The notes: generated by a model from the sequence alone, not told the origin. Counted from the first letter of the stretch, positions 1 through 64,000 are shown. The stretch: DNA of 64,000 nt from Rhizaria sp. SCN 62-66 (GCA_001724265.1 MEDY01000128.1:1-64000), one strand, 5' to 3'. Translations and numbers: made by a program.

Positions 1-1
1 G

Positions 2-5097: not shown

Positions 5098-8000
5098 TTA
5101 ATTGGCGGGAAACTCGCAGAACTTCACCGAGGAGTAAGTGCTGCAGTTGGACGTCTCGCATGTCTTCAAGCTGTTATGCCTCTCAAAGCACCGCAACACA
5201 GTGGTGTCAAAAGGAACGGTACCGTTGTCGCGCGCCGCGGCCACGTAGCCTGGCACACACGACATTACGCGACCGACTGGCACAGCACCACGCAGCAGAC
5301 TCGCCTTGCATGACTTGAAGACGATGAACACAGGCGTATCACACGAGCCCTTGTTGTTCGACGGCTCAGAGGGAACAACGGAGCGTGGGTACATCAGCAC
5401 CGTACCGACAGGGTGCGTCGCCCATGCGGCAGGCGCGGAGTACTCGCCATAGACAATATCGGTGGCAGGTAGCGTCAAAGACGACGTGGCGCACGCAGTC
5501 TCGGGCTCGGGATGGAACAGCGTTACAAAGGGCAGCGACGCGGCAGTCTCCCCGTGAGGCACAAAGCAGTTGTGCAACAACGATCCGAGAGTGTTGCCAA
5601 CAGCAGCGGCACGGAAGTGTGCGGCATTGGCTGGAAACTTTACATCATTGAGCCGCACCACCAAGTGATAGTGGTCAATGCACCCTACCGCTGCGTTGTG
5701 AAACATTGCGTGCATGACAACGTTTGCCTTGGTATTTTTGTCTAACGTCTTTGCAATTGCAGCAAAATGCGCGGTTATAAACTCACGCGCTTTGGCTTGC
5801 AGCTCGCTTAAAGCCGGTAAAGTTGGTGCGCCGTTCACACGCTTAGGGGCCGGAAGCTGCACGTACGTGCTACACTGTTCACTCCACGCAACCCGCCGCG
5901 GGTAGCCGCTCTCTTCCAGACTGCACGCAATGTGTGCGTCAAACGCAGCGTCCCACTGCGCATCCGCCGTCGCATGTGCGGACGGATCCGGATTGCGCGT
6001 CACTAAACCCAGCCTTGTGCCAGTCGTTGCTGCGCAATTGAGAGCTTCAAGGTCACTCTTTGTCTGCTCAAGCGCTCTCTGGTCTTCCTCTCGCTTGAGT
6101 GCCGTCTGCCTCTCCTCCTCTCGCTTGAGTGCCGTCTGCCTCTTCTCCTCTCGCTTGAGTGCCGTCTGCCTCTCCTCCTCTTGTTTGAGTGCCGTCTGCC
6201 TCTCCTCCTCTCGCTTGAGTGCCGTCTGCCTCTCCTCCTCTTGTTTGAGTGCCGTCTGCCTCTCCTCCTCTCGCTTAAGTGCCGCCTGCCACTCTTCCTC
6301 TAGCTTGAGTGCCGTCTGCCTCTCTTCCTCTTGCTTGAGTGCTGCCTTCTTCTCTTCTTCTTGTTGCTTTAAGCACACCTCGAGCTCATGCTGGCGCTGC
6401 GCGCTTGCAGAAACCTGTGCTGCCGTAATCATCTGCTGATCAAGCGCCAGACGCTCAAGTTTTGCAGTCTCCCATGCGCTCTCATGTCGCTTGTCTGCGG
6501 ACACAGATGCGACATGTTGTGACAGCCTCAGATTCCGCTCTTGCTCGCAATTGCGCAACGCTAAAGCTGTCTTTGCTGAAGCCTCGTGCAGCTTGATAGT
6601 CCATTCGGCATTAAGATCACGCAGTTTGTCAGCATTTTGCTTCTCCCAATCGCGCTCGCGATGACGCATTGTAGCGGCAGATGCAGCTTCAGCCTGTAGT
6701 AGCTTTGCAGACCACTGCTACTCAAGAATGCGGTTACGCTCAAGCAGACGCTCGCTCTCAACCTGTGCAGCAATAGCATCAACTTTAGCGCGCGAGAGCG
6801 TTGTTGTCCACTGCATTTCAAGAGTGTTCTCACGGTCACCCTGTGCAACAGCAGCTGCAATGGCTGCGGCATCAAACTCTTCTTGTAGCTTTGCCCGCTT
6901 GGTCTCAAACTCGAGCTAAGCTGCAACGACTGCATCCTCAGCAATGCGAAGCTTCTCTGCCATAGCGGCCAGCTTAGCTGCCCCAGAATCTGTGCACGCC
7001 TGCGGAACATTTGCCCCCTCTGCATCCATTGCATCAGCGTACATTTGCAACGCGCGCGACTGCTGCATTACGTCCGGAAAAGACACAGCGCACCGCACGC
7101 GCACTGCAACGCCGGCGTTGCCAAGAGTTCCATTGTCGCGAGCGTTGCTTGCTTCATAGTCAACAATAATTTTGTTCAGCGCTGCTGGTAAACTCAACAC
7201 AACGGAGGCTTTACGCGGGTTTTCAACCTTAGTATTAACGGGTGTCTTTCCATTTGTGTTATGCTTGGGATCTTGAGTAAGCCACACCTTGCATTCAGCG
7301 CTGGCCTGATTGTTGTCTGCCGAATACAAAGTAAAATTCGCATTCACGTGGCCAAACGTGCTGGCTACTGTCGCGAACTGTTCCGATACATCACATAGAA
7401 CAAGTATGGGAGACGTCGCTGGTGAAACTAAGCCATTATTGTTGAGCAAAGAGCGAGAAACGCATGAGGAGAGCATGTTATCTGTGATGGGAGCGCTACG
7501 ACCATAATAACTTGTGTCATTGTCATCATCCTCGGTCGGCACCAAATCATCAACAACGCGCGCACGGGCACCACAAGTGTTGTAGAGTTCCCCAAGTGCT
7601 TTTTGCATTGGCTCTACTGTTGCTTCGCAGATAATCCCGCAGGAACACGCGTTACAGTGGCCAAATCCATTGATTTGGCTGCTACGCTGAAAAGACGCAC
7701 TACTTTTATGCGATTTAGTTGCACAGCTGCAGTCGCGACGCGCGCTAAAACTAAAACGCACACCACATAGCTTGGCAACGCCTAGCTCCACTGCCTTCAT
7801 ACCGCGCACAAGCGCAGCGAGCGGTACGATAGCCTCACAGACAACCTCACGAGGAGTCAAGGTTAAAGCGGCGTCAGCAAGCGCGGCCTCGAAGGCGTCG
7901 CGTGCAATTTGAAACTGTGTGAGGTCAGGATTGACATGCGCCGACCAGTCACGACTTGCAGTGACTAGGTTGGCCAGCGCCGAGATGTCGGGCACAACAA

Positions 8001-9451
8001 CGGAGTCAGCAATGTTTTTGAGGTCGCAGCGCGCACGTGAGAGCTTCTTATCCTCAGCATCATATGACTGTTGTGTGTAAAGCTTAAGCTGTGACATCAC
8101 TGCTTTGAAGGGCGCGATGGCCTGAGCAGTGTAACTCCTGGTGTGATCAAGCAGAATTGCGTGCTTGCTCTCAATCTCATCCTTGAACTTCATCATAACA
8201 TTTTTTTGCTCCTGTGTTGCAGATGTAATAAACAGTTTAGTGGAATTAGATTTTAGCATTAAGCTTTAAGATTAAAAAAATCACTTTGTTTGTCGTATTT
8301 TTAATTCATTCATGTGCGTTACAACAGTAACATGTCTTCAAATCCATCTTGAATACGCACCTTGACTTTGCGCCCAAACTCGACGAGCTGTTGCGGTAGC
8401 TTTTCCGCGCGGATCCTCAGGTCTGACTGCACCATGCTAATGAGACGGATAGTGTGACCCGCATGCGCACGATTTGCAGCGTTGCATGGCACGCAAACGG
8501 CAGTATTGCAGCTGTCGCACCAGTTGATGATCTCGATCGGTGGTGTGTGCGAACGGCAGTACTGTGCACAATGTTTTTGTAAGCATCAACGCAAAAACAC
8601 AGGAATAATATTGTGTGTTGTTTGTTGCGTAAAATCCCGTGAAGAAAATGTGAAAGCGACGATATTTTAAACAACAATAGTTCAAACAACAAAAAGACAC
8701 ATGTGAGATATTCATACAGGACGGACTAAAGCAACACATATCGTACTTTGCGTGGTACTAGAGTTATCATTTGTCAATACATTGTGATAGTGAAGCTCTC
8801 AAATAACAACGCCTCATTTTGTTATCGTTGTTTGTCACTTGTTACTCATACAAACGTACGAGTACTACAATGTAGTACGCTCACTTATATAAGATGGTGC
8901 TGACTGTTGACAATTCTGCAAAGAATAGTTGTTATGGCAGCAAACACGTACGTTGGGGTTGTTTAAATCCACGGAAGCTGCAAAGGCGCCTGCAGCTGCT
9001 GTTGTTGTTGCGGGCTCGCTCGGGTAGTAGCTGCTCCCGTGACGGCTGGCTGTGGAGACAGTGTCTTCAAGGAACTCACTCGCCTCATCCTAGCCATTGT
9101 GAAAAAGATACATTACAAAACAGCATAGTGATAGGCAATTAAGAATGTCTTATAATCATATCCATACAGTCTACAGTGTTCCTGCACTTTTATATTCTCA
9201 TAATCCGAGTCTTTTTTTCAAAGTCCAAGGAAAGCACTCATCTGTTTGGCTTACCTGCGAGCAGCTCGCACAATTTCTGCGAGGCCTGATATTTGCAGGC
9301 GTGATCATCGTTTTTCCGCAAACCTCACACCGTGAAAAGGTCTATGACATTATCTGTTCGACGACTTAGGTCTTTGCGATAAGATCACGTGTCGGAGAGA
9401 GAGAAGGTAGCAAAGAACAGAAACTGTGAGAGGTGAATCGTATCTTACCAT
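5098..9451 (-). CDS. B-box zinc finger + long coiled-coil protein (TRIM-like architecture, ~1,180 aa) with two in-frame TAG codons
   Basis: Proposed exons are 9451-9449 (ATG only), 9341-9255 (CEVC...CASC), 9089-8952, 8561-8361 and 8211-5098. Exon 8561-8361 encodes CRSH-x9-CDSC-x4-CVPC-x6-HAGH, a B-box type 2. All introns are phase 0 with GTAAG/GTACG/GTGCG...AG. The last exon is continuous except for TAG at 6918-6916 and 6720-6718, and ends in TAA. The 5' exons are less certain than the 3' ones. Confidence 0.72.
6081..6350 (-). repeat. Coding minisatellite, 9 x 30 nt, encoding (EEERQTALK[R/Q])n
   Basis: The unit TCTCCTCCTCTCGCTTGAGTGCCGTCTGCC (+ strand) repeats at 30-nt spacing from 6081 to 6350 with few substitutions. 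Confidence 0.95.
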
Positions 9452-9868
9452 GGTTAAGCTGTAAAGCTTGATAATAGCAACAACAAGAAAATGCAATCAT
9501 ATAAAAGTATTGTAATGACTACAACTCTGCTACTTCATGGTGACTGGCGATGGATTACTAGTACAGTATATGGTGAAATTGAAGACGAAGAACGGTCGGC
9601 AAGTGATGGCATTGTATGGATTCGCCATCTTCGTGCCCACGCACCATGGGCAGTCGGTAGTCTTGGCAACAAGATGGACTAGTACTTTGTAGATAGTCAG
9701 TGAAAAACGCTCTCGTTATGCGCATCAATGTAATCCTAGGAAAAAAACAGTGGTTGGACCGTCCGACATATTAATATCTCACGTAATGAAGTCCAACAGT
9801 ACGTTCAAACATCGACTGAAAGTCAACGGGCGCAATGCTGCCGCGCTTGAACACATGCGACTTGCCCC

Positions 9869-10100
9869 TTGAAAGCTCTTCTAGCTTCTCTTACAAGTCA
9901 GTTTTTGCCAGCACGATAGTACCAGCGTCTAGCTCGGCTTCTTATGTCACACGACTGAGCTGCTGAGGCTAGAGGGCTGGGTATGGAGGTCTTGCAGTTG
10001 ATGCACAAGGTGTTGCAGAGATGTGCGCGTCTGGAACTGCTGCCTACGGCGTCTAACAAAATTTAATCGCACTCCTTAGCTGTTGGAAAACAGTGGTGAT
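9869..10100 (+). pseudogene. Possible decayed fragment of a helical-repeat-like protein gene
   Basis: One frame reads LKALLASLTSQFLPAR*YQRLARLLMSHD*AAEARGLGMEVLQLMHKVLQRCARLELLPTASNKI*. It is protein-like but interrupted by TAG, TGA and TAA. Confidence 0.3.
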
Positions 10101-24562: not shown

Positions 24563-24594
<32 letters not shown>

Positions 24595-42684: not shown

Positions 42685-43083
42685 TTACGCCTTGACGGAC
42701 TTGGTGACCTTCTTGACGATGGCGGCCTTCTGCTTCTTGAGGAGCATGACCTTGAAGCGGTCGAAGTCGGAGAGGTTGGCGCGGGTCTTCTGCGCAGCGA
42801 CGCGCTTGCCCCAGGCAGTAGCAGCAACCTTCTCAGCGACCTTGCTGATCTGGAAGTACTTGTTGATCTTGTCGACGCCGATGGTGCGGGGGACAGCGAT
42901 CTTGATGCTGGTGAGGGAGAGCCAGCGGGTGGGGATGGCCTGGCGCTTGACACCGTTGGCGGAGCCGTCGGCGAGGACGCGGGACTGGTCAATGATGTCC
43001 AGGACCACAACCCACTTGCCGTAGTCGGGGCCGTAGTTGATGAGAGCAACGCGGCCGGTCTCAACAAAGTTAGTCTTCGCCAT
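42685..43083 (-). CDS. RPL14: 60S ribosomal protein L14 (eL14)
   Basis: FVETGRVALINYGPDYGK.VVVLDIIDQSRVLADG...RANLSDFDRFKVM are eL14 motifs. The stop is TAA. The ATG is immediately preceded by a pyrimidine-rich tract ending in CAG, probably a 5'-UTR intron. Confidence 0.97.
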   Translation of the reverse strand: MAKTNFVETGRVALINYGPDYGKWVVVLDIIDQSRVLADGSANGVKRQAIPTRWLSLTSIKIAVPRTIGVDKINKYFQISKVAEKVAATAWGKRVAAQKTRANLSDFDRFKVMLLKKQKAAIVKKVTKSVKA

Positions 43084-49763: not shown

Positions 49764-51701
49764 TCATGTCATGACAGCGTTGTTGTTGCCGCTCCCCGCG
49801 TCACTCATCGGGACACCCCCGCTCGCGCCCGCATCCGCCCCCGCGCCGGCAGCAGCAGCGGCGGCGGCACCGGCGGCGGCGCCGGCCTGGTTGACGCACA
49901 CGTTGTAATGCGCGGCTGCTGGCCTGCCGCAGCAGCCGCAGCAGCCGCAGCGGGGCGCGCCCGCCTCGGCGACCATGGGAGGCACACGCACGGTGTCGAC
50001 GTGGCGCACGCCGCCGCGCACGTTGCGCCGGAAGCGGTCGCGCCCGGTCGCGCTGGACTGGAAGTGCGCGGCCAGCGCCGCCGCGAGCGCCAGACGCCGC
50101 CCGGGCCCCGCGGCGGGCGTCTCCAGCAGCAGGCGCAGCAGCGCGAGCGCAGTGGCCAGCGGCATGCCCGCGACGTTGACCAGATACGTCTTGAGCGACT
50201 TAACGGCGTACGAGGAGCGCACGACGACGGCGTTGCCGAAGTCGGAGCGCAGCAGCGTGGGCGCCGCGCTCTGCCCGTCGAGCAGCGGCAGGCTCGCAGC
50301 CGTCGCGAGGGCACGAGGCCCGCTGCCCGCAACGCCTGAGGCCGCGGTGCCGACTGTGGTCGAGGCGCCGGTGCGCGCGGCCATGGCCAGCTCGGCCTCG
50401 CTGACGGGCGGGAAGTCGATGCTCGCGCCCAGCTCGAGCGCGTCCTTGCGGTGCTCGTAATAGTACTTGATGTCGCCAAGCATCTGGGCCGAGACGGCCG
50501 CGCGCTGCTGCGGCGTCTCACGGTCCTCCGGCTTGGTTTTGAGCTGCTGGTAGCGCCACACGGGGTCGTGCTCGCGGTCATCGAGGCACAAGTCCCGCAG
50601 CGCGCCCATGCGCTCCGCGGCCGCCTCGTCGTCCTCGACCTCGGTGTCCGAGTCGCAGCAGCCCACGTCGGGCCCGTACATGGGCGGGATCAGCGGGATC
50701 GCGGGCGTCAGCGGCGCGTCGAAAGGCAGCAGCCGCGCGCGGTCGCCTGCCGCGAGCTTAGGGATGATGCACGGCCCGAAGACCTGCGGCCCCGCCAGCG
50801 CGTCGAGCTCGTTCGTCTCGCACATGTTGCCCCACTTGGAGCGCAGGTCCATCACCGAGAACCCACCCAGCCAGGGCGCGAACCGCGCGTCGCGCTTGAC
50901 GCGGCTGAAAAGCGTGTTGCCGCATTGCGCCACGGTCAGCGCGGCCGTCAGCCCGCGGTCCGCCATGTCCGTCCCGATCACCGTCACGGCGTCCGTCAGC
51001 ACGGCCTCATGGTGCGGCGTCCAGTCGCTGCCCTTGAGCGCGGCCGCGCGCTTCCCGCGCAGCGACGTGAGGAACTTGCCGTGCGCCGTCTCGTCCGCGG
51101 TGAGCCGCACAGAGGACGAGCCGAGGCGGCTGTCGCCGATGACGGCCCCCGCAAGCACCGGGGCCGCCGTCGACAGGCCGCCTACAAGGGGCGCAGCGGC
51201 GGCCGCCCCAGCAGGGGTCGCGGGCGCAGCGGCCGCGGGGGCGGCGGTGGGAGCGCTGGGGGCGGCGGCGGCAGCGGCGGGACTAGAGCTGGAGTTGAGG
51301 AGGCGGGCGAGTGCCTCCGCCTCCTGCTCGGCCTCGGCACTAGACGCGGCAGCAGCTGTGGGCTCGGGCTTCGCGGCGGCGGACTCGAGCTTGACCAGGG
51401 CAGCGTCGGCCGTCGCGGTGACCGCGTCCGCGTCGTCGGTCATTGCTGCAGCAGCGGCGCTATCATTCGCAGCAGCGGAGCCGGGCGCCTAAAACTTGAC
51501 AGTGACGTCGCCGTCGGCGGCGGCAGCGGGCTGAGAGGCAAGGGCGGCCTTGCGGAGGGCAAGGCGCTCCTTGAGGGAGAGCATAGCCGACGGCGCGGCA
51601 GCAGTCGCCGCGTCGGCAGTGGCAGCGGAGGTGTTGGTGTCGTCGTCGTTCATGGTGTTGTCGGCAACGGGGGAATCCGCCTTCTCGGTAGGGGGCTGCA
51701 T
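49764..51701 (-). CDS. Uncharacterised ~645-aa protein with a telobox-type Myb/SANT-like domain and one in-frame TAG (51491-51489)
   Basis: ATG 51701 opens a GC-rich coding-like frame, MQPPTEK...DVTVKF*APGSAAANDS...MTDDADAV, that is continuous with ORF 49764-51443. WTPHHEAVL...VKRDARFAPWLGGFSVMDLRSKWGNM (about 51023-50823) resembles the TRF/TRB Myb motif DLKDKWRNM. Confidence 0.7.
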
Positions 51702-52307: not shown

Positions 52308-55300
52308 ATGCGTCTCACTGACGTCATTGGCTGCTCCCCGCCGACCCGCGAGGGCTTAGCTTATTATACCCCGCCCACAGCCACCACTTCCTCGTCCTCG
52401 TCTTCAGAGGCATCTTCAAACTACTCAAGCAACTCCCCGAGTGCCAGCTTCCCCTCACCCGCAGCCTCGAGCGCCGGCCCCCACGGCTCCTACGCCGCTG
52501 AGCTTGCCGCGTTTGCCGCCGCCCCGCTGCACTCGTTCCCGTGCAGCGCGCCCCGCCACGCCGGCGCGACCACGGTCACGCTGCCGGCCCTGCTGTGCAG
52601 GCCGCTCGTGGCCGTGCCCGCGGGTGCCTCCGTGCTGTTGCTGTGCGCGACCACGCTCGACACGCTCGCCGTGCTGCCGGGCCGCAGCGGGCACCAGATT
52701 GTCTCGCTCGCCTTCTCGCCCCTTACGCCGCTCCCCCCGCCTCAAACTATGGCCGACACTGCTGCGGCTGCAACGGCGACAAAGCCTGAGGCAGCGGATA
52801 ACGCTGCTCCCCAGCAGCAGACGCACGACGTGCTGCTGTATGCGGGCGAGTCTGGCGTTGACGCCGGCGTTCTCGTCTTCAGCCTGTCCCTGCTGGGCCC
52901 CGCCGTGGCGCTCTACGCGATGCGCCCTCCCTCGCCACAGTCCTTCGTCGCGGCGGCGGCGGCCGCGGCGGCCAGAGTCGCGCTCTCCCAGCGCGCCAGC
53001 TCCAGCAACAGCAGCACTACGACCGCCTCTGCAACTCCTGCGGGAGCGACCCTGGCCGGCGCAGTCGCCGCCGCCGTGACCGCCGTGGCACACCTAGTGG
53101 GCGACGCCGAGGCCGAGTCCGCGGCCGAGTCCGTGGCCGTGGCGGTGCTGCAGCCCGCGACCGTGGGCACCGTCGCGCCCTCGCCCTGCGGCCGCTGGTT
53201 GCTTGCCGCCAGCAACACCGGCACGGCGCTGTGGGCCCTCGCCACCCCCACCACCACAAGCACCGCTAACGCGGGCCTGAGCACTGTGATGGAGAGCTCG
53301 AGCTCGGGCGCAAGTGTGAGCGCGAATGACGTCGATGCCGGTGCAGTTGCTGTTGCTGGGGATATGGTGACTGTGAGCAGCGCTGTTGCGTCGATGATTC
53401 ACTACAATAACAACATCGCCCTCTCGCAGCCACATCATCAGCAGAGGATCAACTCAGAACATTGCGAGAGTGAGCGAGCGTGCAAGCGCGAGCGCAAGCG
53501 GCGGCAGCGGCAGCGCCGGCGGCAGCAGCGGCAGCGGCTGCGGCAGCTTGTCTGGGACTGGGCCTCGGCCTCAGTCCTTACTCTGACCCGCCACCCCACG
53601 CTGCCGGACGCCGACACCACGCTCGCGCTCGCCGCGGCGGCCGCGCCGGCGGCTGCGGAGGCTGTCGCGGCATATCTTTCGAGCCCTGGTGATTACGCCG
53701 TGAGAAGTGTCAATACCGGTGCGAACACTGACGCCGACGGCAGTGCGCCGTGTTTGCTGCTAGCCTCGGCGGCGGCGGGGGTCGTGGCCGTGGCGGCCCG
53801 CCCGCCGCCGCCGCTGGCGCTGGCATGGTCTCAGTGCGGCAGCTATTACGCTCACAGCCACTTGACTGGCGGGGCGAGCGTGGTATCGGTTGCCGAGGTC
53901 TCGCCGCGGGCGCTGCTGCTGGCATCCGCTGTACACGGTGACACTGAGGGCAAGAGCACAGCAGCTTGTCAGAGCGACGATGATGTGTTAGTGGCGGTTC
54001 CCGTTGCTGTCGAGCTACTTACAAGTCTAAGTACCCTCTGGCAGAAGGCGAACCCATACGCCCCTGGCTGCTCACAGTCACCCTTAGAGCTTCAGAAGAC
54101 CCTTACAGAGGCGATCACGCGTGCCGCCGCACTTACATCTGCTGACAACGACAATAAGAACAGGAGCAAGAGTAAGGGTGCTAAACGCCAAGATGGTGAC
54201 GACGATGAGAATGAGAGCGGCACTGTGCTGTCCGCGTCGCTGCTGCTGACTCTGTCTCACCCGAACCCCGCAAACCCGATGCCTCTCCTGCATCCTGGCA
54301 CGAACAGGGCCAAAGCTCAGAGCGACAGTGGCAGTGCTAGAGCCAGTGCGAGTGCGTGTGCGAGGACGTATGACGAGGTGTCGTTGTCGCTACTGCTGTC
54401 TCTCTTGCCAGCCCTACTTCTGCCCCTGACTACTTCATACAGCAATGACCGCAATATCAGTGGTTGCGGCAGTGGTGGGCTGGCTGTGACCGTGAGCACC
54501 CCAGTCAGGCTTGGCTTGCACAAGAACATCTTGATCCCCTCTATCGCTTGGTTGCCGACTGCAAACGCACACTCTCCCAGCAACACGGCCACTGACGTGA
54601 ACAATACCAATGCGAGTGCGTGTGCGAGTGGTAAAGAGCTATGGGCGGGCCCCGAGTGCTACTTTCTCACCGCCACGGGCGTCATTCTGCTGCTGCGGCC
54701 GAAGCTTTTCCCCCCGCTGCACACCATCATCGCCGCAAGCTCGAGCCCAAGCAGCATCACGCGCTCAGCCACCGCCCCAGCCACGGCGACCGACGCTGAC
54801 ACGGCGAGGGCGGCTGCGGCAGCGTTCGCCCGCGTGTTTGCAGCAGACCAGGCTGACGTGCTGTTGCCAACCATGGCGACAGGCTTTGCCGCTGCGTTCA
54901 ATTCGACGGTACGTCATTGTAGTCATTCTCTCAGAAATACTAGGATTATTTGACTATAATTCATTGAAACGTGCGTTTTATAATTTTGTTTGCATTATTG
55001 TTTCATCTTACTCACATCATACCTTGTATCTCCATTGCATTTTAAATCATATGCGTAGATTCTTCCCACTCTCGGTCTGCCTGCAATCACAGCCTCCACT
55101 GCTGCCGGCCTCAACTCCACCACAAACGGGCTTGCGTCAGCGACTACCACCAGCGGCAGCGTCACTTTGCGGCTGACTTGGGAGGTCGAGAAGTGGGTCA
55201 GTGCCAAGATCGACCACGGTCTCTACTTACACGCCTCGCAGCTCCCTTACACCTCATACCCGCCCCCCTTAGTGCAGTCCCCAGCCCCCGCCGGCGGCCC

Positions 55301-58300
55301 GCCCCAGTCAAACGCGAGCGCGAGTGCAGGCACGGGGCCCGCGAGTGCGAGCCCTGCTGGCGCGGCGACCCCTCTGTGTCTACTCACGGTCACGGGCCGC
55401 GGCGGCCGCGTGCGCCTCTTCCATACACACACGCTGCGCCACGTCACGGCCATCACCGCGCTCCCGCCCACGGGCGCCGCCGCGGGCACCGCCGCCGCGG
55501 CCGCGGACCTGGCCGGCGCGGCGGCCGCGATCGGCGCCATCGCCACGCGCACCGCGGGCGCCGACGTGCGCTACTACGACGCCGTCGACAACACGGACCC
55601 GAGGTTCCGCCGGCTGCTGCGCAAGCACGCGCAGGAGCAGCAGGAGCTCCTGAACGGCGCGAGCGGCGGCGGCGGCGCTGCTGCTGGCGACGGTGCGGAC
55701 TCGCGCGGCGCCATTGGGGGCGTGGCCCCCGTCCGCGGCGGGATCGACTACCGCAGCAGCGGCCGCTATGTGCGCCGCATGGAGCGCTACGAGGCCAAGA
55801 TGCGCGCCGCCGGGTTCCCGCACGGCCCGCCGACCCGGGCCAGCTTCGTCACGCTCACGGTCCCTGCGCCAAAGCTGCCCGTGTGCGTCACACTGCGCCT
55901 GTCGGCGGACGGCAGGAGCCTGGCGATGCACTTCGCGGACCGGTCGCTGCTCACGGTTGCTTTGACGTTTCCGGACGCGGCCTACGCAAACGGCGCGAGT
56001 TCCAGCGCGACCGCAAGCGCGAATGCGAGCGGCGCGAGTCTGGGTCACCTGAGTAGTCGCGTCGGCAGCGGCAGCACGCCACGGGACGCCAAGGGCGCGG
56101 CCACCGCCAAGCCCTTTGTCCCCAGCGTCGCCTTCACCGGGTACCGGCCTGCGGTGCGCGGATCCGTGTCGGCGCTCAGGGTATCGACCGTGTACCCGCA
56201 CAACCCGGCCGCGGAGTCGATGGCGGGGTTCAACTACACCGCACGGCTGCAGCAGCGCGCGGCCGCGGCGGACCACCCGCGAGCCCACGCGTACGCGGCC
56301 GAGCTGGCGGCCAAGCTCGCCGCGCAGGGCGAGCCGCTGGCGGCGCAGTGCGCGCGCGAGCAGCGCGGCACGCTGGCGGTGACCGTGGTCGGTACCGAGG
56401 GTGTGGTGCGCGTGTTCGCGCTCAGGCCCAGTGGGGCGGGGCACGCCAGCGACTGTGAGCGCAACTACTTCCCGCGCAGTAAGGAGGAGCGGGACAGCGG
56501 GACGTACGACCCGTTTCCGCTCACTAACAAGAGCAAAGCTCGCACTGGCGGTGCTGGCGGCGCGAAGCCTGAGAGCGACTGTGAGCGCAAGGTGAGCGAC
56601 TGTGAGCAACTCTCACCATCACTGTTGCAGTCGCAGTCTGAGGCGCGGTTCCGCCGCAGTGTTGCGCTGGGGGACCGTGAGCAGGCCGAGCTGCGGGACC
56701 AGCAGTGGCAGCAGGTCTCGTGGGGGCCCATTGACCCGGTGCCTGTGGACCGCGTGCACGCGCTCTTCGCGGTCCGCACCGGCATGCTCAACCAGTACTC
56801 GACGCCAGGTACTTAGACGCGAACACCATTTTCACACTGACACTTCTCATTCTCGATGGCTTTTTGATTTATGATGATATTTTTGTTCTGGATTATCAAT
56901 GTCTTTATCTAACATTATCCCTGTGTTTTTGTTCTTTTATTTGATTTGTTATCGTTTTAGGTCCCGCTGCCGTCAAGGGCACTCAGGTTATCACGGCTGC
57001 CTCTGCCTCTGCATACGCCGCTGCCACGACCGATGGCAGCAAAGCAGGTGTTTCTAGTTTTCCCGTCCACGGCGCTCAACATTCAGCCGTTGCCGCTATC
57101 GACGGAAGCACTAATGTGCAGCAACTGCAGTCTGCGCCGAAGACGACGTGTCTCGTCGGCGCTGCGACGCCCGCAGTCTCGTTCTGGCAAAACAGCACTA
57201 ACGCCGACGACAACGACAGTATTAGCGACATCAGTGACACCGATAGCGGCACCGATTATGACGACGAAGACGAAGCTGACAACGCTGGCGGCGTCAGTCT
57301 TAAGCGCGAGCGCAAGTTGCTGCAGCAGCAACACAACGACAGGCAAGAGGGCAAGAGCAACAGCAATATGAGCTTTAACTGGGACGACGAAGCGACGTAC
57401 ACTGACAATAACGATGAGTCAAAGAGCAACATCTCTCACAAGAATCTCACCAACAGCGCCAGCAACGCTAGTTTTGTTGGCAATGTTTTGAACTCGATGA
57501 CCGCGAGCCTCGTCATGCGCGGCGTTGTCACCGGCGGCGCCCGCAGTGCCGTTGACTCCTCTACCGTGACTGCAGCGAAGCCGGCCGCTGATCACAGCGA
57601 CATTGTGACGGCGATCGCCGACGGCGACATCGCCAGCGTCCACGGCGGCGTGGCGGCCGACGCGGCGTACAACAGCTGGGACGCGCTGCAGCAAGAGGGC
57701 GCGCTGGCATGGGCGCTGTGGGGGACCGACGTCGACGCCGTGAGCACCATCACCACGACGGTCACCACGCGCACCAACTGCACCGCCATCTCGACGTCGT
57801 CGTCCTCACACGCCACCAGCAGCAACAACACCGGTGACAGCACCCAGAAGAGCGACTCTAGCGGTGGCGGCGCGAGCGGTGCGGGCAGCCAGGTGACCGT
57901 GAGCACGCCGACGGCGACGACGACCGTGAGCGAGCGCGACGGGCTCCACGTGCGCACCAAGGTCGTCACAGGCAACGCCGCGATCGAGAACGACTGGACC
58001 ACCGCGAACCTGCCCCCCATCACGGACGCGGCCGCTCCGACTCCCAACCCGGCGAGTCACACTGGTGCCGGCCGTGGCGGTGCTGCTGCGGCGGCCACGC
58101 CCCAGCCTGGGTTTGCGCTGCCGCCGACAGCGCTCACCGCATTAGTGCCTCCCAAAGCTAAGTCGCAAAGCACCTGCAAGAACAGCAGCGCGAGTGCGAA
58201 TGCGAAGGGCAGTGATGGCGTCGGCGGGTACGGTGCGGCCGCGCACTGCGTCGCCATGATCCAGGCCCTCAGCGACGGCGGGGTCGCGGACCCTTACTCG

Positions 58301-61300
58301 GCGCCCACTTACTCCGGCACGGCGCCGCACGCGAAGGGCCGCGGCGCGCGCGCGCTGGCTCCGTTAACCACGCTGCCTGCGGGCGCGAGCGTGCCGCTCG
58401 ACGGCTCCCGCCATAACAGCATCGCGTTTGCCCACGGCAGCGACTCTAACGCCGGCACCAGCGACACCGCGTCTGGGTTCAACAGCGGCGCGCAGAGCGT
58501 GGGCGTGACCGTGGGCAGCACGCTGGCCGGCGTCGCGGTGGGCGACACCAAGGGCGACGTGCTGGTCATGGCGGCCGTTGCGCAGAGCCTGTTGCCGGCG
58601 GCCGTGTCGGCGCCCGCGGCCGAGCACGCGGTGACCACGACCGCTGGCGCCAGGGCCGCGGCCGAGGCCGAGGCGCGCACCGCGATTGCCGTCGCTCTCG
58701 CGTATGCCCGCGACTTACTCAACAAGAACAAGAACACCAGTGCAGGCAGTACCCGTGACACTCACAGTCTCAACATGGCCGTGCTGGAGCTGCTCGAGCG
58801 CGAACCGATGCTGCTGACGACCGGAGTAACTGTGAGCGCCAGCGCCCGCACCGGTGTGCTCACGGTCACCTCGCCCCACTCCGGCGGCTCCACTATGACT
58901 GTGAGCCACCTGTTCTCCGGGGTAACCGTGAGCACCGCGCACGGTGCCACCAAGGCGGCCCCCATCTGCCCGTACTACAGCTATTATCGGCCGACGCTGG
59001 CTCCGACGGCGCCCGCCGCGGTACGGTTGGCGTGCCACGCGCTCGCGCACACGCTTCTGTTCCCGGTCAAGACGCTGGGCGCGCACGAGGGCGCGGTGAC
59101 CGCGCTGTCGTTCTTGCCGCCGCCCCCGGCCCCGCTGCCCACGGTCACAACCACAACGACGACGACGACTACAACGACGACGACTACAACGACGACGACG
59201 ACGACGACGACGTCTGGGACGCCAGCCGGCAACCACAGCGTTAGCGGCGTCAGCGGCGTCAACGAGGGCGGGCTCGTGCCACTGCCTTTCAGCCTCGGCC
59301 GCCGCCCCTGCCCCGGGCACTTGCTGACAGCCTCGCAGGACTCGCTGGTGCACGTCATCGACACGGGCGACCTGTACGGCCCTCCGCTGACCACGCTGCA
59401 GCCCGTCGGGCCCCTCGCCACCGTCACCGCGCTGGCCCCGCTCCTACCGCCCTCGAGCGCGCCGGCCGCGCTACTCAACGCCGGCCCCCGCGTCGTGGCC
59501 ACGGGGCTGGACGGCAGCGTCACTCTGTGCCACCTGCCGCCCTTCACTGCGCTGCCGCCGCCCAACAGCGGAATGGCCTACGGTGGCGCGCCCTCTGGGG
59601 CGTTCTGCCCCCCGTTCCCGCCCGCCCTGTCGCTCCACACCGCCTCCGCCTCTGCTTCTGGCACTGGCTCTGGCGCCGGCGCCGGCGCGGGTCCGGGTGT
59701 TAGTGACCGCGTGTTCGCAGTGGCGGCACATCCTCTGGGCCGACTCGCGGTCACCGCGGGCGGCGTCGCGGCGGCCGACACGTGGCAGCTGCCCACGGCC
59801 ACGGCCTCGGCCGCCGCGGCGAGCACCGGCATGCCCGCCGCGGTGGTCGGCGGCAAACCCGGCCCGCGCCTGTGGCTGCCGCTGGTCTCGGTCGTTGCCC
59901 GGCACGTCCGACGCGAGAACAGGCGCGAGGCGGCTAAGGGGCTGGCGAATAAGGGGTGCTTAGAGACGTCGAAGGGCGGGGTTAGGAAGAGCGTTACCAG
60001 TGGCCCCGGGACTGCTGCTGGTGACGCTGAGGTCATCACTCTTGACAGCACCGATGACAGCGACTCTGGCGCTGAGTTCGAGTCTGACGATGACTCTGCT
60101 TCCGACACTGATCGTGACAGTGACGACGACGACGGCGACGATGACGACGACGACGACGATGACGACGATGATGAGGTCGAGTGGCGCCACGACTACCACA
60201 CTGCCATTATCGCGCTCAAGCTTGCGCGGGACAACGACCAGCACAATCATCAAGTCAAGCTCGACAAACTCAACAAAACTAAGGCGAGCGCGACTGAGAA
60301 GACGGCCAAGAAGACTCGCATCGGTGACGACGATTACGACGAGTTTGCGTTCGACACAAGCACTCCGAGAGTCAACGACGCCGTTGCTGAGGCCGATACG
60401 GGCGGCAGCTTGACCGTGGTCGAGAGCGAGGCCACCAAGGCCGCCGTCGCCGCGCTGGCCGCGGTGGTGGCGCAGCGGCCAGCCCGCGCCCGCCCGCAGC
60501 CGCTGCTCTGCACGCACGCGCCGTCGCCGCTACACCGTTCGCGGCCGCCGCCCAACCTCGCCTCGCTCTCACTCCTCGCCAGCGGCGCGGCAGCAGGTGG
60601 CGGCGCGGTGACGGCCGCGGCCCGCGCCGCCGCCGCTGTGGCCGTGCCGTGCTGCGCGCTCACGGTAGCGCTCGACCCGTCGGGCTCGTGCCTGGCCGCG
60701 GCGCTCAGCGACGGCCGCGTCCGCCTGCTCGACACGACGACGGGCGCGACGCTCAGCGAGGCGCCCGCCGTGCACGGGTCACACGTGTCCGCGCTCGAGT
60801 TTGCGCCCGACTGCGCCGCGCTGCTCGCGGCGGGCGCGGACGGCGTCGTGGCGCAGTGGGCCCTCCCGCGCTGGCTGCGGCTGCGGCTGCGCGCCCGGCT
60901 CGGCCCGCTGCTGCGCGACGTGCGCGCGCAGGACGGCGCCGCGCTCGTCGCGCGCGTCGCGGCCGCCGCCGGGGTCTCCACGGCCGCGCTCACGCCTGCG
61001 CCGCACGCGAACACCAGCGCTCTCACCAGCCAGTCGGGCAGTAAGTGCGCTAGCGCGAAGAACGACGAGGATGATAACGACGATTTGATCACTGTTACGC
61101 CCGCGATGGCTCGCGCTCTCTGTCTTCCTGCTCACAGCAGCAGCGGGAGCAATGCGACGATCACCGCGACCGCGCTGCGGTCTCGCCTGCGCTCTCTGAG
61201 CGTAGCCGCGACCGACGCCGACCTGATAGCGCTGCTGCTGCGGCCGGCCAAGGCGCCGCCGATGCTGTTGGTGCCGCCGCCGCGTGAGCAGCGACTGCCG

Positions 61301-61551
61301 GCGATGTCGCGGTACTACAAGCAGTGCCTCGACGAGCTGATGCAGATGCAGCGGCAGCACCAGCAGCACATGCTTGAGCTAGAGCGGGAGCAGGAGCAGG
61401 AGCAGCAGGGGCTAGAGCTGGAGCACAAACAGTCGCAGCTGGTGCTCGAGCCCGAGACTGAGCCGGACGCTGACGCTGACGCTGACGCTGAGGCAGGTGA
61501 TGACGCCGAGGCTGAAGCTGCTGACGCTGTTGAAATCGACGTCGATATTGG

Positions 61552-61583
<32 letters not shown>

Positions 61584-64000
61584 AAGCGAGCGACGACAGT
61601 CTCGACGGTGCTGACGGCGAAGACAACGATAACGAAGACAAGACCAACACTGGTACCAACGGCGTCGCAGTCGACGATGATGATGTCGATATCGACATCT
61701 CTTTGTCTGACACTGGCAACGCCAGCAAGGACAGTGTCGCCGTCGATAACAGCAAGGCAACTGGCTTCGTTCTTCGTCTCGCTGGTGTCAGCGCTCATGA
61801 CCAGAGTGTAAGTACTCCGAGCAGGAATCTAAGTACCCCCGGCTCTGCCGTGAGCGGCCGCAAACCCTCCAGGTGGGCTGCCAACGCGGCGGGACAAGGC
61901 GGCGTCCCACTGTTTATTCCGCGCATCAACAACGCCGCTCTGTCCAGCACTTTCACGAACAACGACACTGACAACGACAACGATGACAACGGGGTTAGTG
62001 GCAGCACGAGCCTGAAGTCTGACGTTGTCGTTAACGCGAAGAAGGCTGACGATAAGAGTGCGGTTTACAGCGTGAAGTCTGGTAAGACTGCACTGACTGC
62101 TGATGCTGATGCGAAGGACGACGCTGTTGTCAGCGGTGACAACGATCTTGGCTACGGAGACCCGACGCAGCAGTACAACAACAAGTACACCAACAAGTTT
62201 GCGAACATCAAGCTGCACAATAACACCAGCAGCAAGAATAGCACGATCGATAAACACGCCGACGCCGACGCCGCCGATGACGACGATGATGGCGCGAGCT
62301 CGAGCACGAGCGCGTCCTTCCACCTCCGCATCGCTGACGCTGACGACGACGACGATGACGGCGACTACGACAACGACGGCGACGATGACGCCCGCGGTCA
62401 CTTGCGCAGCGGCGGCGTGGCGCGGGTTGGCACGGGCAGGCGCAGAGTCACCAGCGCGTCGCGACTGCAACGGGCCCCCGTCACCACCACGGCGTCCGCC
62501 GCGACCGCAGCCGCAGCCAGTGCGAGTGCGCTGAACAGCAACGCCAGTAGCGTGGACTCCAGTGGCGCCAGTGCCCGCGTCGTCAACAGCGCCGGCTCTG
62601 CTTCGACGACGAGCTCTCGCGACGCCTCCGCCGACGGCGGTGTCAAGCAGAGCGGCCTGACTGCGCGGCGGCAGAAGCCCGTGTTGTTCCGCATGGAGTC
62701 GCCACTGGCCTCGGCCGCGACGCTGCGCCGCGCGGACCTGGGGCTGCAGCAGGCGCTGGCCGAGTACAACACCGCCATCACGACCGGCGCTGCGGCGGGC
62801 GGGAAATCGGGCCATATCCCCGCCGCGCCTACCGCTGCTGTCGGCGCCGCCCAGCCCGACCCTCAGACTCAGCCCGCGCTTGGTAGCGCCGCTGCCGCTA
62901 ACGCCGCTACCGCTAACGCCGCCGCTGCCGTGAGCGCCTTCGGCAGCGTCGTCAGCGTGGGCGGCGCCGCCGTGGTGCTGGCGCGGCAGCCGTCTCGTCG
63001 CAGCGCGCTGCGCCGCATTGGCTCCAGCCGCGCCGCCACGGGGCCGGTCGTCGCGACTGCGGCCGATAGCACGGCTGCGACTCAAGCGTTGGCCGCTGCG
63101 GCCACCGCGACTGAGGCGCCCAGTAGGACTGAGCCAGCGGCTGCGGCTGCGGCCGCGGCTGAGGCGGCTCCTGTGGCTCCTGTGGCTGCGGCTGCAGGCA
63201 TGCCTGGGCTCAAGCGGCAGCCGTCGTTGCGCTCGTCATTCAGTGCTAGTTTCTACAACAATCATAACGGCAGTAGTGCACTGAGCAGTTTCAACGCAAA
63301 CGGAAGCAGCTAGAGCAGCTTTAACACACATAACAACAGCAGCAACACTGCTAGCGATACTACGGATTCTTCTGCTACTACGACGGACTCCGCCACTGCA
63401 GCCGATGTCGCTGCTGTTGACGATGCTGCTGCGGGTGCTACCCCCGCTGTCGCGCTTGATAGCGCTGGCACTGAGTCGAACACTGAGACAAAGGATGCTG
63501 ATACTGCTGCTGCGACCACAGCGGCTGCGGACGAGATCGAGACGGAGACGAAGACTGATGCCCAGACCACTCCCGCGCCCGCGACGGTGACTGCCCCCAC
63601 GCGCACTGTGCTCAACAGCGCGATCGGTGGCGACAGCAGTGACAGCGACAGCGAACCCACCGGCGTCGACCTCAGCAGTCTCATGGCTGCTCGCAACACG
63701 GGAGAGAGGAGCGATGCTGAGGCCGGCAGCAGCGACAGCGTTGGCGCCACAGATAAACCCGAGCCGACGACTGTTGTCATTGACGAAATCAACGACTACA
63801 AGAACGCCAACAACGTTCCCACCGGCGACGACATGGACGTCGAGGACGACTACAGCGAGTTCGAAGAGGAGGCCCTCGAGGGTCCTACGCCGGCCATCAC
63901 TCCCTCGGCCTCCAACGCCAGCGGTCACCCTCATGGTGCGGTGACACCGCGGAAGCAGCAGAAACACGCTGCGACGCCCACCGCCGCGCACGGCCGCGGG
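52308..64000 (+). CDS. WDR62: WDR62/MAPKBP1-like WD40 protein, >3,790 aa, running off the window; 3 exons seen, one in-frame TAG (63311-63313)
   Basis: Exons are 52308-54908, 55059-56808 and 56961->64000. Introns 54909-55058 (GTACGT...TAG, phase 0) and 56809-56960 (GTACTT...TAG, phase 1) keep frame. Ordered motifs matching MAPKBP1/WDR62 are LVAVPAGASV, IVSLAFSP, AGESG, EKWVSAK, HEGAVTALSF, LLTASQDSLVHVID and LDPSGSCLAAALSDGRVRLLD...HVSALEFAPDC...GADGVVAQWALP. Confidence 0.85.

What the first reader, a model, noticed from the sequence alone, without database searches (positions are those of the whole stretch)
6718..63313. Candidate variant nuclear genetic code: UAG alone read as a sense codon (probably Gln) while UAA and UGA remain stops
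Seen in the sequence: five in-frame TAGs interrupt otherwise seamless coding frames in four unrelated genes (6918-6916, 6720-6718, 39518-39520, 51491-51489, 63311-63313). No TAA or TGA interrupts any intact gene. Of 15 modelled gene ends, 10 are TAA, 5 are TGA and none is TAG, including the conserved C-termini of RPL30 and RPL14, which end in TAA. None of the five TAGs has an in-phase consensus donor (GTACG/GTAAG/GTATG/GTGCG) nearby, so they are not easily explained as 3' splice sites. Established knowledge: UAA and UAG almost always change meaning together. Uncoupled UAG is known from only a few eukaryotes, such as UAG=Leu in the rhizarian 'exLh', UAG=Gln in Iotanema, and some ciliates. Inference: the contexts D*QQ, LE*QW and SS*SS (AGC-TAG-AGC, compare the AGC-CAG-AGC runs near 22560) favour Gln. 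TAG appears to be a rare codon, found only in AT-richer genes or disordered regions and absent from highly biased genes, which could indicate an early-stage or low-usage reassignment. No TAG falls at a conserved residue here, so the amino acid is not proven.
Basis: partly seen in the sequence, partly recalled or inferred. Interest (0 to 1): 0.93.

Follow-up and report, generated by a model that had tools for sequence, protein, structure and literature searches.

The report
In-frame UAG codons, probably translated
An uncultured, GC-rich flagellate found in wastewater reactors has UAG "stop" codons inside at least three otherwise intact genes, so it probably reads UAG as an amino acid, a rare kind of genetic-code change that this 64 kb alone cannot prove.

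Summary
All five TAGs are at the stated coordinates. Four lie inside coding sequence.

- **6916-6918 and 6718-6720:** they sit in a helical linker between two conserved domains that homologues carry in one protein.
- **51489-51491:** it follows 70 coding-like codons whose motif is kept at the N-terminus of a 46%-identical orthologue.
- **63311-63313:** it is followed by at least 228 strongly coding-like codons.
- **39518-39520:** this one is weak. The 125 open codons after it are not clearly coding, and one poor intron candidate exists.

Independent assemblies carry the first two TAGs unchanged, so they are not assembly errors. Introns are unlikely. No frameshift is seen.

UAG decoded as an amino acid is the best explanation (about 0.6).

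- Gln has no support.
- "0 TAG gene ends" partly assumes the conclusion.
- TAG-only is only weakly diagnostic, because 55-66% of random nonsense hits would be TAG.
- One TAA (29039-29041) is also followed by coding-like sequence.
- No tRNA, eRF1 or RNA evidence at the TAGs could be obtained.

If real, this is a new member of a known but rare kind of code.

The parts
6916..6918 (-). In-frame TAG 1 of the B-box/coiled-coil gene (residue 450 of P0001).
   Evidence: Seen. It lies in predicted helix 428-477. It is unchanged in the X2 contig 6242-7946 and the X4 contig 6743-7939. Predicted fragments P0167 and P0007 from other assemblies end here.
6718..6720 (-). In-frame TAG 2 of the same gene (residue 516).
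   Evidence: Seen. It lies in predicted helix 486-588, where 10-residue block means of pLDDT are about 77-83. It is unchanged in the X2 contig. Five length variants from ENA assemblies all start at the same Met after it. The 65 codons between the two TAGs score +0.19 to +0.35 per codon, with frame 0 best.
5098..8265 (-). Main exon of the gene (P0001): an N-domain, a helical linker holding both TAGs and a 30-nt tandem repeat, and a C-domain. It ends in TAA at 5098-5100.
   Evidence: Homologues P0008, P0009, P0026, P0037 and P0086 carry both domains in one protein.
8319..8585 (-). Upstream B-box zinc-finger exon of the same gene.
   Evidence: Pfam zf-B_box, E 1.8e-4, below the curated cut-off. 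It aligns with the N-termini of P0009 and P0065.
51489..51491 (-). In-frame TAG in the N-terminal region of P0002.
   Evidence: The 70 codons from the ATG at 51701 score +0.50 per codon in the frame of the main ORF. The pre-TAG motif LSLKERLALRKAALA aligns with the N-terminus of orthologue P0162.
49764..51701 (-). Coding sequence of P0002 (no Pfam family). It ends in TGA.
63311..63313 (+). In-frame TAG in the long WD40-containing gene (P0004).
   Evidence: The next 228 codons score +0.385 per codon in frame 0 and at most +0.044 in the other frames. Fourteen post-stop controls range from -0.39 to +0.03.
55059..64000 (+). P0004 gene: exon 55059-56808, intron 56809-56960, and an exon from 56961 that runs off the window.
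   Evidence: and WD40 hits. The intron is inferred from GTACTT..CTAAC..TTTTAG and frame continuity.
39518..39520 (+). TAG at the end of the 1663-codon ORF of P0003. This is the weakest case.
   Evidence: 125 open codons follow (chance about 0.007), but their coding score falls within the control range. One weak intron candidate spans 39336-39578. Only the window's own protein was found for the tail.
34589..39898 (+). P0003 ORF, which ends in TGA at 39896-39898 if the TAG is read through.
   Evidence: no Pfam family.
29039..29041 (+). TAA ending the 3709-codon ORF, followed by coding-like sequence. This is an unexplained counter-observation.
   Evidence: The first 33 codons after it score +0.35 per codon, and the frame stays open for 100 codons to a second TAA.
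3502..3718 (-). Intron shown by polyA RNA (GTATGT..CTAAT..CACAG). It serves as the reference for real introns here.
   Evidence: Spliced joint 3501->3719 in RNA run X13, with the sequence.
47381..47599 (+). Intron of eIF3d (GTACGT..CTAAC..ATAG).
   Evidence: and the Pfam eIF-3_zeta hit on the joined exons. It is inferred from the sequence, not from RNA.
42685..43083 (-). RPL14 coding sequence, ending in TAA at a conserved C-terminus. It is a control showing that UAA is a terminator.
   Evidence: The PDB search aligns residues 4-131 of 132 to 5-133 of 134 in the best chain.

Best explanation
The organism translates UAG instead of terminating at it, while UAA and UGA remain its terminators. UAG is a rare sense codon here: 5 in about 14,500 codons, about 0.03%. 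So far it is seen only in variable, helical or disordered parts of proteins.

Shown: four TAGs lie within sequence that is, or looks, translated, and those that could be checked are fixed in independent assemblies.

Inferred, from established knowledge of other UAG-only codes: decoding is by a tRNA with anticodon CUA, most simply a mutated copy of tRNA-Gln(CUG) or tRNA-Leu(CAA), together with an eRF1 that has lost or weakened recognition of UAG.

The amino acid is not determined. My guess is Gln about 0.4, Leu about 0.25, and other residues for the rest.
For: 1. One gene needs both TAGs read. A phmmer search of 1.84 billion representatives gave 157 hits at E<=0.001. In the 11-sequence alignment, P0008, P0009, P0026, P0037 and P0086 carry the N-domain and the C-domain in one chain. 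In P0001 the two TAGs lie between these domains, inside helices 428-477 and 486-588 of the model. The 65 codons between the TAGs have the best coding score in frame 0.

2. In P0002, 70 GC3-rich codons run from the ATG at 51701 to the TAG and score +0.50 per codon. Their motif aligns with the N-terminus of orthologue P0162, which is 46% identical.

3. In P0004, the 228 codons after the TAG score +0.385 per codon. Fourteen post-stop controls score at most +0.033.

4. Stop-free extension after TAG-ended frames against 15 TAA/TGA-ended frames gives an exact rank test of 2/816.

5. The TAGs are neither assembly errors nor heterozygous sites. X2 and X4 contigs carry them unchanged, and no alternative letter is listed there. 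Protein fragments from at least 5 ENA assemblies break at the same places.

6. Introns do not explain them. Real introns begin GTATGT, GTACGT or GTACTT and are pyrimidine/AT-rich with a CTAAC or CTAAT branch 51-66 nt from the 3' end. For P0001, the only in-frame candidates with a consensus-like donor would delete the near-invariant motif AVRVRCAVSFPDV. P0002 and P0004 have no candidate.

7. No frameshift is seen. The 13,956 modelled codons are continuous, and the +1 and +2 frames after 14 gene ends score at most +0.055.

8. None of the 14 unambiguous gene ends is TAG (9 TAA, 5 TGA). UAA closes RPL14 at a conserved C-terminus and closes eIF3d 26 residues after its Pfam profile ends.
Against: No TAG falls on a conserved, aligned residue, so translation is inferred, not shown.

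The window holds no tRNA gene (0 found) and no eRF1 gene, and no whole genome is held.

With this codon usage, 55-66% of random nonsense mutations would be TAG, so 5 of 5 has p of about 0.05-0.12.

One TAA (29039) also has coding-like sequence behind it. The tally of 5 TAG: 1 TAA: 0 TGA fits random nonsense hits, and it equally fits a UAR code, since CAG:CAA is 345:77.

Each TAG can be explained away singly:
- P0001 belongs to a large family in which a dead copy is plausible.
- P0002 has an in-frame ATG 16 codons after its TAG.
- The TAGs of P0003 and P0004 precede tails that might be dispensable.

Under the standard code the TAGs of P0003 and P0004 would simply be gene ends, so the stop tally is partly circular.
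Confidence: 0.6

Rival explanations
1. The code is standard, and the TAGs (and the TAA at 29039) are fixed truncating mutations or ordinary stops. On this view P0001 is a dead member of an expanded family, P0002 restarts at the ATG 16 codons after its TAG, and P0003, P0004 and the 3709-codon gene end where the stop is. Their tails would be recently lost or only look coding.
For: The tally of 5 TAG: 1 TAA: 0 TGA matches the expected shares of random nonsense hits, 0.55-0.66: 0.17-0.25: 0.16-0.20. P0001 has 157 relatives. All TAGs sit in variable regions. The tail of P0003 is not clearly coding.
Against: It would need disabling hits in 4-5 of about 16 genes that sit next to intact housekeeping genes. 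It would also need them without a single frameshift, although indels are usually at least as frequent as nonsense changes (general knowledge). P0001 has two nonsense codons but both of its domains are intact. P0004 keeps 228 coding-like codons after its TAG. The same letters appear in assemblies from several studies.
Confidence: 0.12
2. The code is ambiguous or context-dependent. UAG, and sometimes UAA, is translated inside genes, while UAA still terminates near gene ends. This would resemble UAA in Blastocrithidia nonstop, or the ciliate codes that have no dedicated stop codon.
For: The TAA at 29039 is followed by 33 coding-like codons in frame, and only 0.14% of non-coding windows score as high. 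The 5:1 ratio of TAG to TAA mirrors CAG:CAA = 345:77. Precedents: the abstracts of PMC12153298 and PMC4967479, seen in the listing.
Against: It rests on one TAA. Codons 34-73 after it are T-rich and score as non-coding, and their lack of A could by itself keep the frame free of stops. An ATG lies two codons after the TAA, so a separate small ORF is possible. UAA closes 9 of the 14 unambiguous gene ends, for RPL14 at a conserved C-terminus.
Confidence: 0.1
3. UAG is still a stop codon, but these sites are read through by programmed or leaky readthrough using near-cognate tRNAs, which would give both short and long products.
For: Three of the five TAGs are followed by C, and two by CAA or CAG. 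From recall, that resembles leaky contexts known from viruses and yeast.
Against: P0001 would need two successive readthrough events to make its C-domain. A quarter of the genes in one window needing readthrough has no precedent. No TAG is used at any of the 14 unambiguous gene ends.
Confidence: 0.07
4. The correction happens at the RNA level. A-to-I editing turns UAG into UGG (Trp) in the transcript, as in filamentous ascomycetes.
For: In those fungi editing favours U at -1 and often hits UAG and UAA (abstract of PMC11156358). In Fusarium graminearum, 71 pseudogenes with premature stops are restored by editing (abstract of PMC10776026). Both abstracts were seen in the listing.
Against: It is known only from a fungal group that this organism shows no sign of belonging to. 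Here about a quarter of the genes in the window would need it, far more than the 71 genes reported in that fungus. No A>G (T>C on the plus strand) is listed at the TAGs in the RNA run, but coverage of the TAGs is not shown.
Confidence: 0.05
5. The TAGs lie in introns that happen to keep the frame.
For: A TAG at 56814 does lie in an intron. P0003 has one in-frame candidate at 39336-39578: GTACTC, CTGAC, TTTTAG, 243 nt.
Against: For P0001, consensus-like donors would remove a near-invariant motif. P0002 and P0004 have no candidate. The P0003 candidate has A at -1 and lacks a CTAAC. It is also purine-rich, unlike the three real introns, and has only one stop in 81 codons.
Confidence: 0.03

Closest known systems
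Iotanema spirale (Fornicata) nuclear code: UAG = Gln, UAA and UGA stops (PMC5304391, passages read)
   Same: In-frame UAG occurs but no in-frame UAA or UGA in modelled genes. UAG is not used as a terminator, and UAA is the dominant stop: 104 UAA and 15 UGA there, 9 TAA and 5 TGA here.
   Different: There, 204 in-frame UAGs in 126 genes were tied to Gln through conserved alignments, and UAG is about 8% of Gln codons. Here only 5 UAGs are seen (about 1.2% of Gln codons if it is Gln), none at a conserved residue. This organism is a GC-rich flagellate from wastewater with a peroxisomal gene (PEX7), not an anaerobic fornicate. The paper's additional files were not seen.
Uncultured rhizarian exLh: UAG = Leu (PMC5304391)
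   Same: Only UAG is reassigned, the organism is uncultured, and the case was found from sequence alone.
   Different: There Leu was shown from alignments. Here the residue is unknown, and the one informative internal repeat puts Ala or Met opposite a TAG.
Other UAG-only cases: phyllopharyngean ciliates, Protocruzia tuzeti (Gln), Scotinosphaera (Ser) (PMC11687900, discussion passages)
   Same: The meanings of UAG and UAA are uncoupled.
   Different: Nothing in the window shows a ciliate or an alga, but the organism could not be placed: the nearest Atlas clusters and PDB chains point to no single group. From recall, phyllopharyngean ciliates carry genes on small, AT-rich chromosomes. This organism's genes lie on contigs of up to 203 kb, with GC3 of 0.44-0.95 and introns of about 150-220 nt.
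Blastocrithidia nonstop: UAR = Glu, UGA = Trp, with UAA also a terminator (abstract of PMC12153298 in the listing)
   Same: It would match only if the TAA at 29039 is really translated. UAA would then have two meanings.
   Different: No in-frame TGA is seen here, and TGA closes 5 of the 14 unambiguous gene ends.
Restorative A-to-I editing of UAG in filamentous ascomycetes (abstracts of PMC11156358 and PMC10776026)
   Same: Genomic TAGs occur inside genes that nevertheless encode full-length proteins.
   Different: That is an RNA-level mechanism restricted to a fungal group. It affects a small share of genes, and no editing could be observed here.

Membership tests
Nuclear code with UAG as sense and UAA/UGA as stops (Iotanema/exLh type) | In-frame UAG inside genes that are otherwise intact and must be read through. 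| tested here: met
   Met for P0001 (two TAGs between conserved domains). Met for P0002 (conserved N-terminal motif before the TAG). Met for P0004 (228 coding-like codons after the TAG). The TAG of P0003 is inconclusive.
Nuclear code with UAG as sense and UAA/UGA as stops (Iotanema/exLh type) | UAG aligns with one particular amino acid at conserved positions of homologues. | tested here: inconclusive
   All TAGs fall in gaps or in linker regions that do not align. The internal repeat gives Ala or Met at one TAG. Only the window's own protein was found for the tail of P0003.
Nuclear code with UAG as sense and UAA/UGA as stops (Iotanema/exLh type) | UAG is not used as a genuine terminator. | tested here: inconclusive
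   None of the 14 unambiguous gene ends is TAG. The sample is small, and the ends of P0003 and P0004 depend on the hypothesis itself.
Nuclear code with UAG as sense and UAA/UGA as stops (Iotanema/exLh type) | UAA and UGA terminate at conserved C-termini. | tested here: met
   RPL14 ends in TAA level with the end of solved homologues. In eIF3d the Pfam profile is matched to its last position 26 residues before the TAA. The CFAP161-like and TMEM230-like genes end in TGA near the ends of their profiles. One odd TAA at 29039 remains unexplained.
Nuclear code with UAG as sense and UAA/UGA as stops (Iotanema/exLh type) | A tRNA with anticodon CUA is present. | not testable with these tools
   The window has 0 tRNA genes and 0 Rfam matches. 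No whole genome is held.
Nuclear code with UAG as sense and UAA/UGA as stops (Iotanema/exLh type) | eRF1 domain 1 is altered (GTS, NIKS, YxCxxxF and nearby positions, as listed in PMC5304391). | not testable with these tools
   I found no eRF1 among the window's ORFs, though not every ORF was scanned. No other contig of the organism could be reached.
Nuclear code with UAG as sense and UAA/UGA as stops (Iotanema/exLh type) | Mature mRNA carries the UAG, neither spliced out nor edited. | tested here: inconclusive
   The polyA RNA run X13 is truly spliced RNA of this organism (joint 3501->3719). It has only depth 0.91 in the bin 6568-7164, and no listed piece lies on a TAG.
Pseudogenes / nonsense alleles | A mixture of lesions (frameshifts, all three stops) and variation between samples. 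| tested here: not met
   No frameshift is seen, and no in-frame TGA. The letters are identical in X2 and X4 and in the ENA variants. The ratio of stop types alone does not exclude this reading.

The most novel reading that the evidence does not exclude
This could be an early or ambiguous stage of stop-codon reassignment in an unplaced, uncultured flagellate that is common in wastewater reactors. UAG, and perhaps occasionally UAA, would be translated inside genes at very low usage (about 0.03% of codons), while UAA stays the main terminator. That would be a code caught while a stop codon is being captured. UAG-only changes outside ciliates are known from only a few lineages.
Probability: 0.12. 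Interest if true: 0.85.

Novelty: new member of a known kind. Interest (0 to 1): 0.66.

Why it matters
The papers read here list only a few lineages in which UAG changes meaning without UAA. Each new case tests how eRF1 and a single tRNA(CUA) can uncouple the two codons.

This one would be in a GC-rich organism with very low UAG usage. That is the state expected soon after codon capture, so it bears on how reassignments begin.

It is also practical. Gene callers already split this organism's proteins at TAG. The public collections hold P0001 as fragments (P0006, P0007/P0167, P0107), P0002 from the Met after its TAG (P0161), and P0003 cut at its TAG (P0168).

The claim can be tested directly. 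Assemblies with contigs of about 200 kb and polyA metatranscriptomes from the same study already exist.

Tried and rejected

**More DNA of the organism or its relatives.** The one metagenome scan with P0001 returned only a 2434-nt contig identical to the window's 3' part of the gene. Scans of viral contigs and genome contigs with the C-domain alignment found no relative.

**RNA.**
- No RNA holder was listed for 5098-8265.
- In run X13, no listed piece covers a TAG, and the bin around them has depth 0.91.
- Nothing can therefore be said about splicing, editing or expression at the TAGs.

**Selection test across strains.**
- The laid contigs are almost identical to the window. X4 and X5 pieces have 0 other letters, and X2 pieces have 0 to 3 each.
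- The low word shares therefore reflect patchy coverage, not divergence.
- No dN/dS or TAG<->CAG exchange could be scored.

**Residue identity.**
- Homologue alignments put the TAGs in gaps.
- Self-alignment was significant only for TAG 2 (p 0.005 from 200 shuffles) and gave Ala.
- By eye, LSSFN / *SSFN in P0004 and TLEMQW / ILE*QW in P0001 hint at a hydrophobic residue, but neither is significant.

**Tail of P0003.** The search found only the window's own protein, P0168.

**Taxonomic placement.**
- eIF3d found only one relative, at 35% identity. That search scored only the 8000 candidates sharing the most words.
- The Atlas gave mixed phyla.
- The best PDB chain for RPL14 is 5xxb_L, which I recall as Toxoplasma, closely followed by other eukaryote chains.
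- All 10 family members looked up come from metagenomes.
- The organism remains unplaced.

**Literature.** One search for a wastewater protist with a UAG change found nothing relevant. It used the terms genetic code, UAG, eukaryotic and activated sludge, and returned 4 papers, all unrelated.

**Structure model.** The P0001 model has mean pLDDT 64 and pTM 0.37. I used it only for the helices around the TAGs and ran no fold search.

**Other steps.** One Pfam call exceeded the residue limit and was resent with fewer proteins.

Full report
**What the window is**

It is a eukaryotic nuclear contig.
- GC varies strongly along it, from 0.44 to 0.71 per 4 kb.
- It has long ORFs without introns and a few introns of about 150-220 nt.
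- Housekeeping genes are present: RPL30, RPL14, eIF3d, RIO2 and PEX7.
- A CFAP161-like gene is present, so the organism probably has a flagellated stage.

No whole genome is held. The stretch 5098-8265 is found in bioreactor, wastewater and fuel-cell metagenomes; 11 listed runs from 7 studies hold at least part of it. All 10 family members that I looked up are known only from metagenomes. I could not place the organism taxonomically.

**The observation**

If only TAG is read through:
- 5098-8265 (minus strand) becomes one frame of 449 + 65 + 539 codons.
- 34529-39520 gains 125 codons.
- 56945-63313 gains at least 229 codons, up to the end of the window.
- 49764-51488 gains 129 codons upstream.

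As a control, I took the real coding frames that end in TAA or TGA and measured the distance to the next in-frame stop. For 15 such ends it is 0-34 codons, with one of 100. For the three TAG-ended frames it is 65, 125 and at least 229. The exact rank test gives 2 of 816.

A sixth TAG (56814-56816) closes the ORF 55059-56816. It lies just inside an intron, GTACTT..CTAAC..TTTTAG at 56809-56960, which joins that ORF in phase to the frame starting at 56961.

**TAGs 1 and 2 (gene P0001)**

An exhaustive phmmer search of 1.84 billion cluster representatives gave 157 hits at E<=0.001.
- In an alignment of 11 of them, P0008, P0009, P0026, P0037 and P0086 carry the N-terminal domain and the C-terminal domain in a single protein.
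- A B-box exon lies upstream at 8319-8585 (below the Pfam cut-off) and aligns with P0009 and P0065.
- P0001 is therefore one gene, and both TAGs lie in its linker.
- That linker is longer than in the homologues, so neither TAG has an aligned residue.

The 65 codons between the TAGs have typical coding composition, with GC1/2/3 of 0.71/0.42/0.46. Their best codon score is in frame 0: +0.19 with a model trained on a different gene and +0.35 with one trained on the rest of P0001. In an AlphaFold model (mean pLDDT 64, pTM 0.37) residues 450 and 516 lie inside long helices, 428-477 and 486-588.

The public collections hold this gene as fragments cut at the TAGs:
- P0167 and P0007 end at TAG 1.
- P0107 lies between the two TAGs.
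- P0006 and four length variants start at the Met after TAG 2.

**TAG in P0002**

The sequence upstream of 51701 is pyrimidine-rich and looks non-coding. From the ATG at 51701, 70 GC3-rich codons run to the TAG in the frame of the main ORF. They score +0.50 per codon.

The only relative found, P0162 (NCBI source, 500 aa, 46% identity), starts MSDVPGEKALSLQEKLAARKAALA. This aligns with EKA...LSLKERLALRKAALA before the TAG. The coding sequence therefore starts upstream of the TAG. The TAG itself falls in an alignment gap.

**TAG in P0004**

The 228 codons after the TAG score +0.385 per codon in frame 0 and at most +0.044 in the other five frames. Fourteen 60-codon stretches after genuine stops score from -0.39 to +0.03.

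**TAG in P0003**

This is the weakest case.
- The 125 open codons have a chance of about 0.007.
- Their coding score (+0.05 to +0.08) is within the range of the controls.
- Only the window's own protein was found for the tail.
- One in-frame intron candidate exists at 39336-39578. Its signals are poor: A at -1, GTACTC, no CTAAC, purine-rich.

**Artefact, allele, intron**

*Assembly error or heterozygosity.* Contigs of run X2 (6242-7946, one other letter, at 6272) cover both P0001 TAGs unchanged. Contigs of run X4 (6743-7939, no other letter) cover TAG 1. No alternative letter is listed at either place. The other three TAGs lie outside the stretch laid. Fragments from at least five ENA assemblies break at the same points. 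P0161, P0006 and P0167 each list a longest contig of exactly 203,014 nt, so the P0001 and P0002 genes probably share one contig in an independent assembly, which argues against a chimeric window.

*Introns.* Three real introns serve as reference. One is shown by a spliced joint in polyA RNA (3501->3719). Two are inferred from sequence. They begin GTATGT, GTACGT or GTACTT, carry CTAAC or CTAAT 51-66 nt from the 3' end, and are AT- and pyrimidine-rich.
- For P0001, the only in-frame candidates with a consensus-like donor start inside AVRVRCAVSFPDV, which holds near-invariant residues of the family.
- P0002 and P0004 have no candidate.

*Frameshifts.* None is seen. The 17 modelled coding segments (13,956 codons) are continuous. 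The +1 and +2 frames after 14 gene ends score at most +0.055.

**What weakens the case**

1. With this codon usage, 55-66% of random nonsense mutations would give TAG. Five of five therefore has p of only about 0.05-0.12.

2. An unbiased scan looked for stops with coding-like sequence on both sides.
   - Apart from hits that are antisense to confident genes, it finds TAG 6918, 6720, 51491 and 63311.
   - It also finds the TAA at 29039-29041.
   - The 33 codons after that TAA score +0.35, and only 0.14% of 1382 non-coding windows reach 0.3.
   - The next 40 codons are T-rich and score as non-coding.
   - The frame stays open for 100 codons, and an ATG lies two codons after the TAA.
   - I cannot explain this. 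It fits chance, a small separate ORF, a recent truncation, or occasional decoding of UAA.

3. The tally '0 TAG ends' is partly circular. Under the standard code, the TAGs of P0003 and P0004 would be ordinary ends. The unambiguous ends are 9 TAA and 5 TGA.

4. No TAG sits on a conserved residue. The window holds no tRNA gene and I found no eRF1. RNA across the TAGs could not be seen.

**Weighing**

Each TAG can be explained away on its own. P0001 could be a dead paralogue, P0002 could use a downstream start, and the tails of P0003 and P0004 could be dispensable.

Together, though, that would mean fixed disabling hits in a quarter of the genes of a region that also holds intact housekeeping genes. 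It would also mean no frameshift anywhere, and identical letters in samples from several studies.

- Iotanema spirale (Gln) and the rhizarian exLh (Leu) (PMC5304391, passages).
- Protocruzia, phyllopharyngean ciliates and Scotinosphaera (PMC11687900, passages).

I put it at about 0.6. The rivals are:

| Rival | Probability |
|---|---|
| Standard code with truncations | 0.12 |
| Ambiguous UAR decoding | 0.10 |
| Readthrough | 0.07 |
| A-to-I editing, as in ascomycetes (abstracts) | 0.05 |
| Introns | 0.03 |

**Which amino acid**

It is undetermined. Gln is the commonest outcome in other lineages, which is prior knowledge and not a result here. The only significant internal repeat aligns TAG 2 with Ala, and by eye with Met in another unit.

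If UAG were Gln, it would make up about 1.2% of Gln codons here: 5 against 345 CAG and 77 CAA. In Iotanema the figure is about 8%.

**Verdict**

The reassignment reading is the best one, but this window does not prove it.

If true, it is a new member of a rare, known kind of code, in an uncultured flagellate that is widespread in wastewater. It can be settled with data that are already public.

Noticed in passing
29039-29344 (+): The TAA closing the 3709-codon ORF is followed in frame by 100 open codons that end in a second TAA. The first 33 look coding (N/D/S-rich). Codons 34-73 are T-rich and would encode a hydrophobic stretch. An ATG lies two codons after the TAA.
   Followed up: partly
5098-8585 (-); proteins P0008-P0160: The gene combines a B-box, an N-domain, a long coiled coil and a C-domain (motifs NAAHFR, TDIVYGEY, GAVPVGRVMSC). 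The main ORF (P0001) matched no Pfam family. It has 157 relatives at E<=0.001, and the 10 that I looked up come only from metagenomes. The layout resembles TRIM proteins. This looks like an expanded, undescribed family.
   Followed up: partly
6086-6342: A 30-nt tandem repeat (8.6 copies, encoding EEERQTALK-like units) varies in copy number between assemblies. The C-terminal fragments are 453, 473, 503, 523 and 543 aa long and have one amino-acid difference.
   Followed up: yes
whole window: Neighbouring genes differ greatly in third-position GC, from 0.44 (P0003) and 0.51-0.63 (P0001) to 0.92-0.95 (RIO2, PEX7, eIF3d). Three of the five TAGs are in the two low-GC3 genes.
   Followed up: partly
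1-17900: Contigs from runs of different studies and years (2015-2025 in the run list) are almost letter-identical to the window. This suggests a very uniform, widespread population.
   Followed up: partly
1326-1328, 49764-49766, 54951-54953: Three of the five genes that end in TGA have a second in-frame stop 1-3 codons later. This may be a back-up for a leaky TGA, or chance.
   Followed up: no
17912-29041 (+): A 3709-codon ORF without introns is almost entirely low-complexity (Ala/Ser/Gly/His-Gly repeats). It has one Cys-rich, zinc-finger-like block near its N-terminus.
   Followed up: no
45137-45928 and 46483-46854 (-): A CFAP161-like domain lies here, with a probable upstream exon. It indicates that the organism builds cilia or flagella.
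   Followed up: partly
10891-12964 (+): ORFs at 11170-11751 and 12305-12964 have no Pfam family. A polyA-RNA contig lies on 12697-12917. This is probably an unmodelled multi-exon gene.
   Followed up: no
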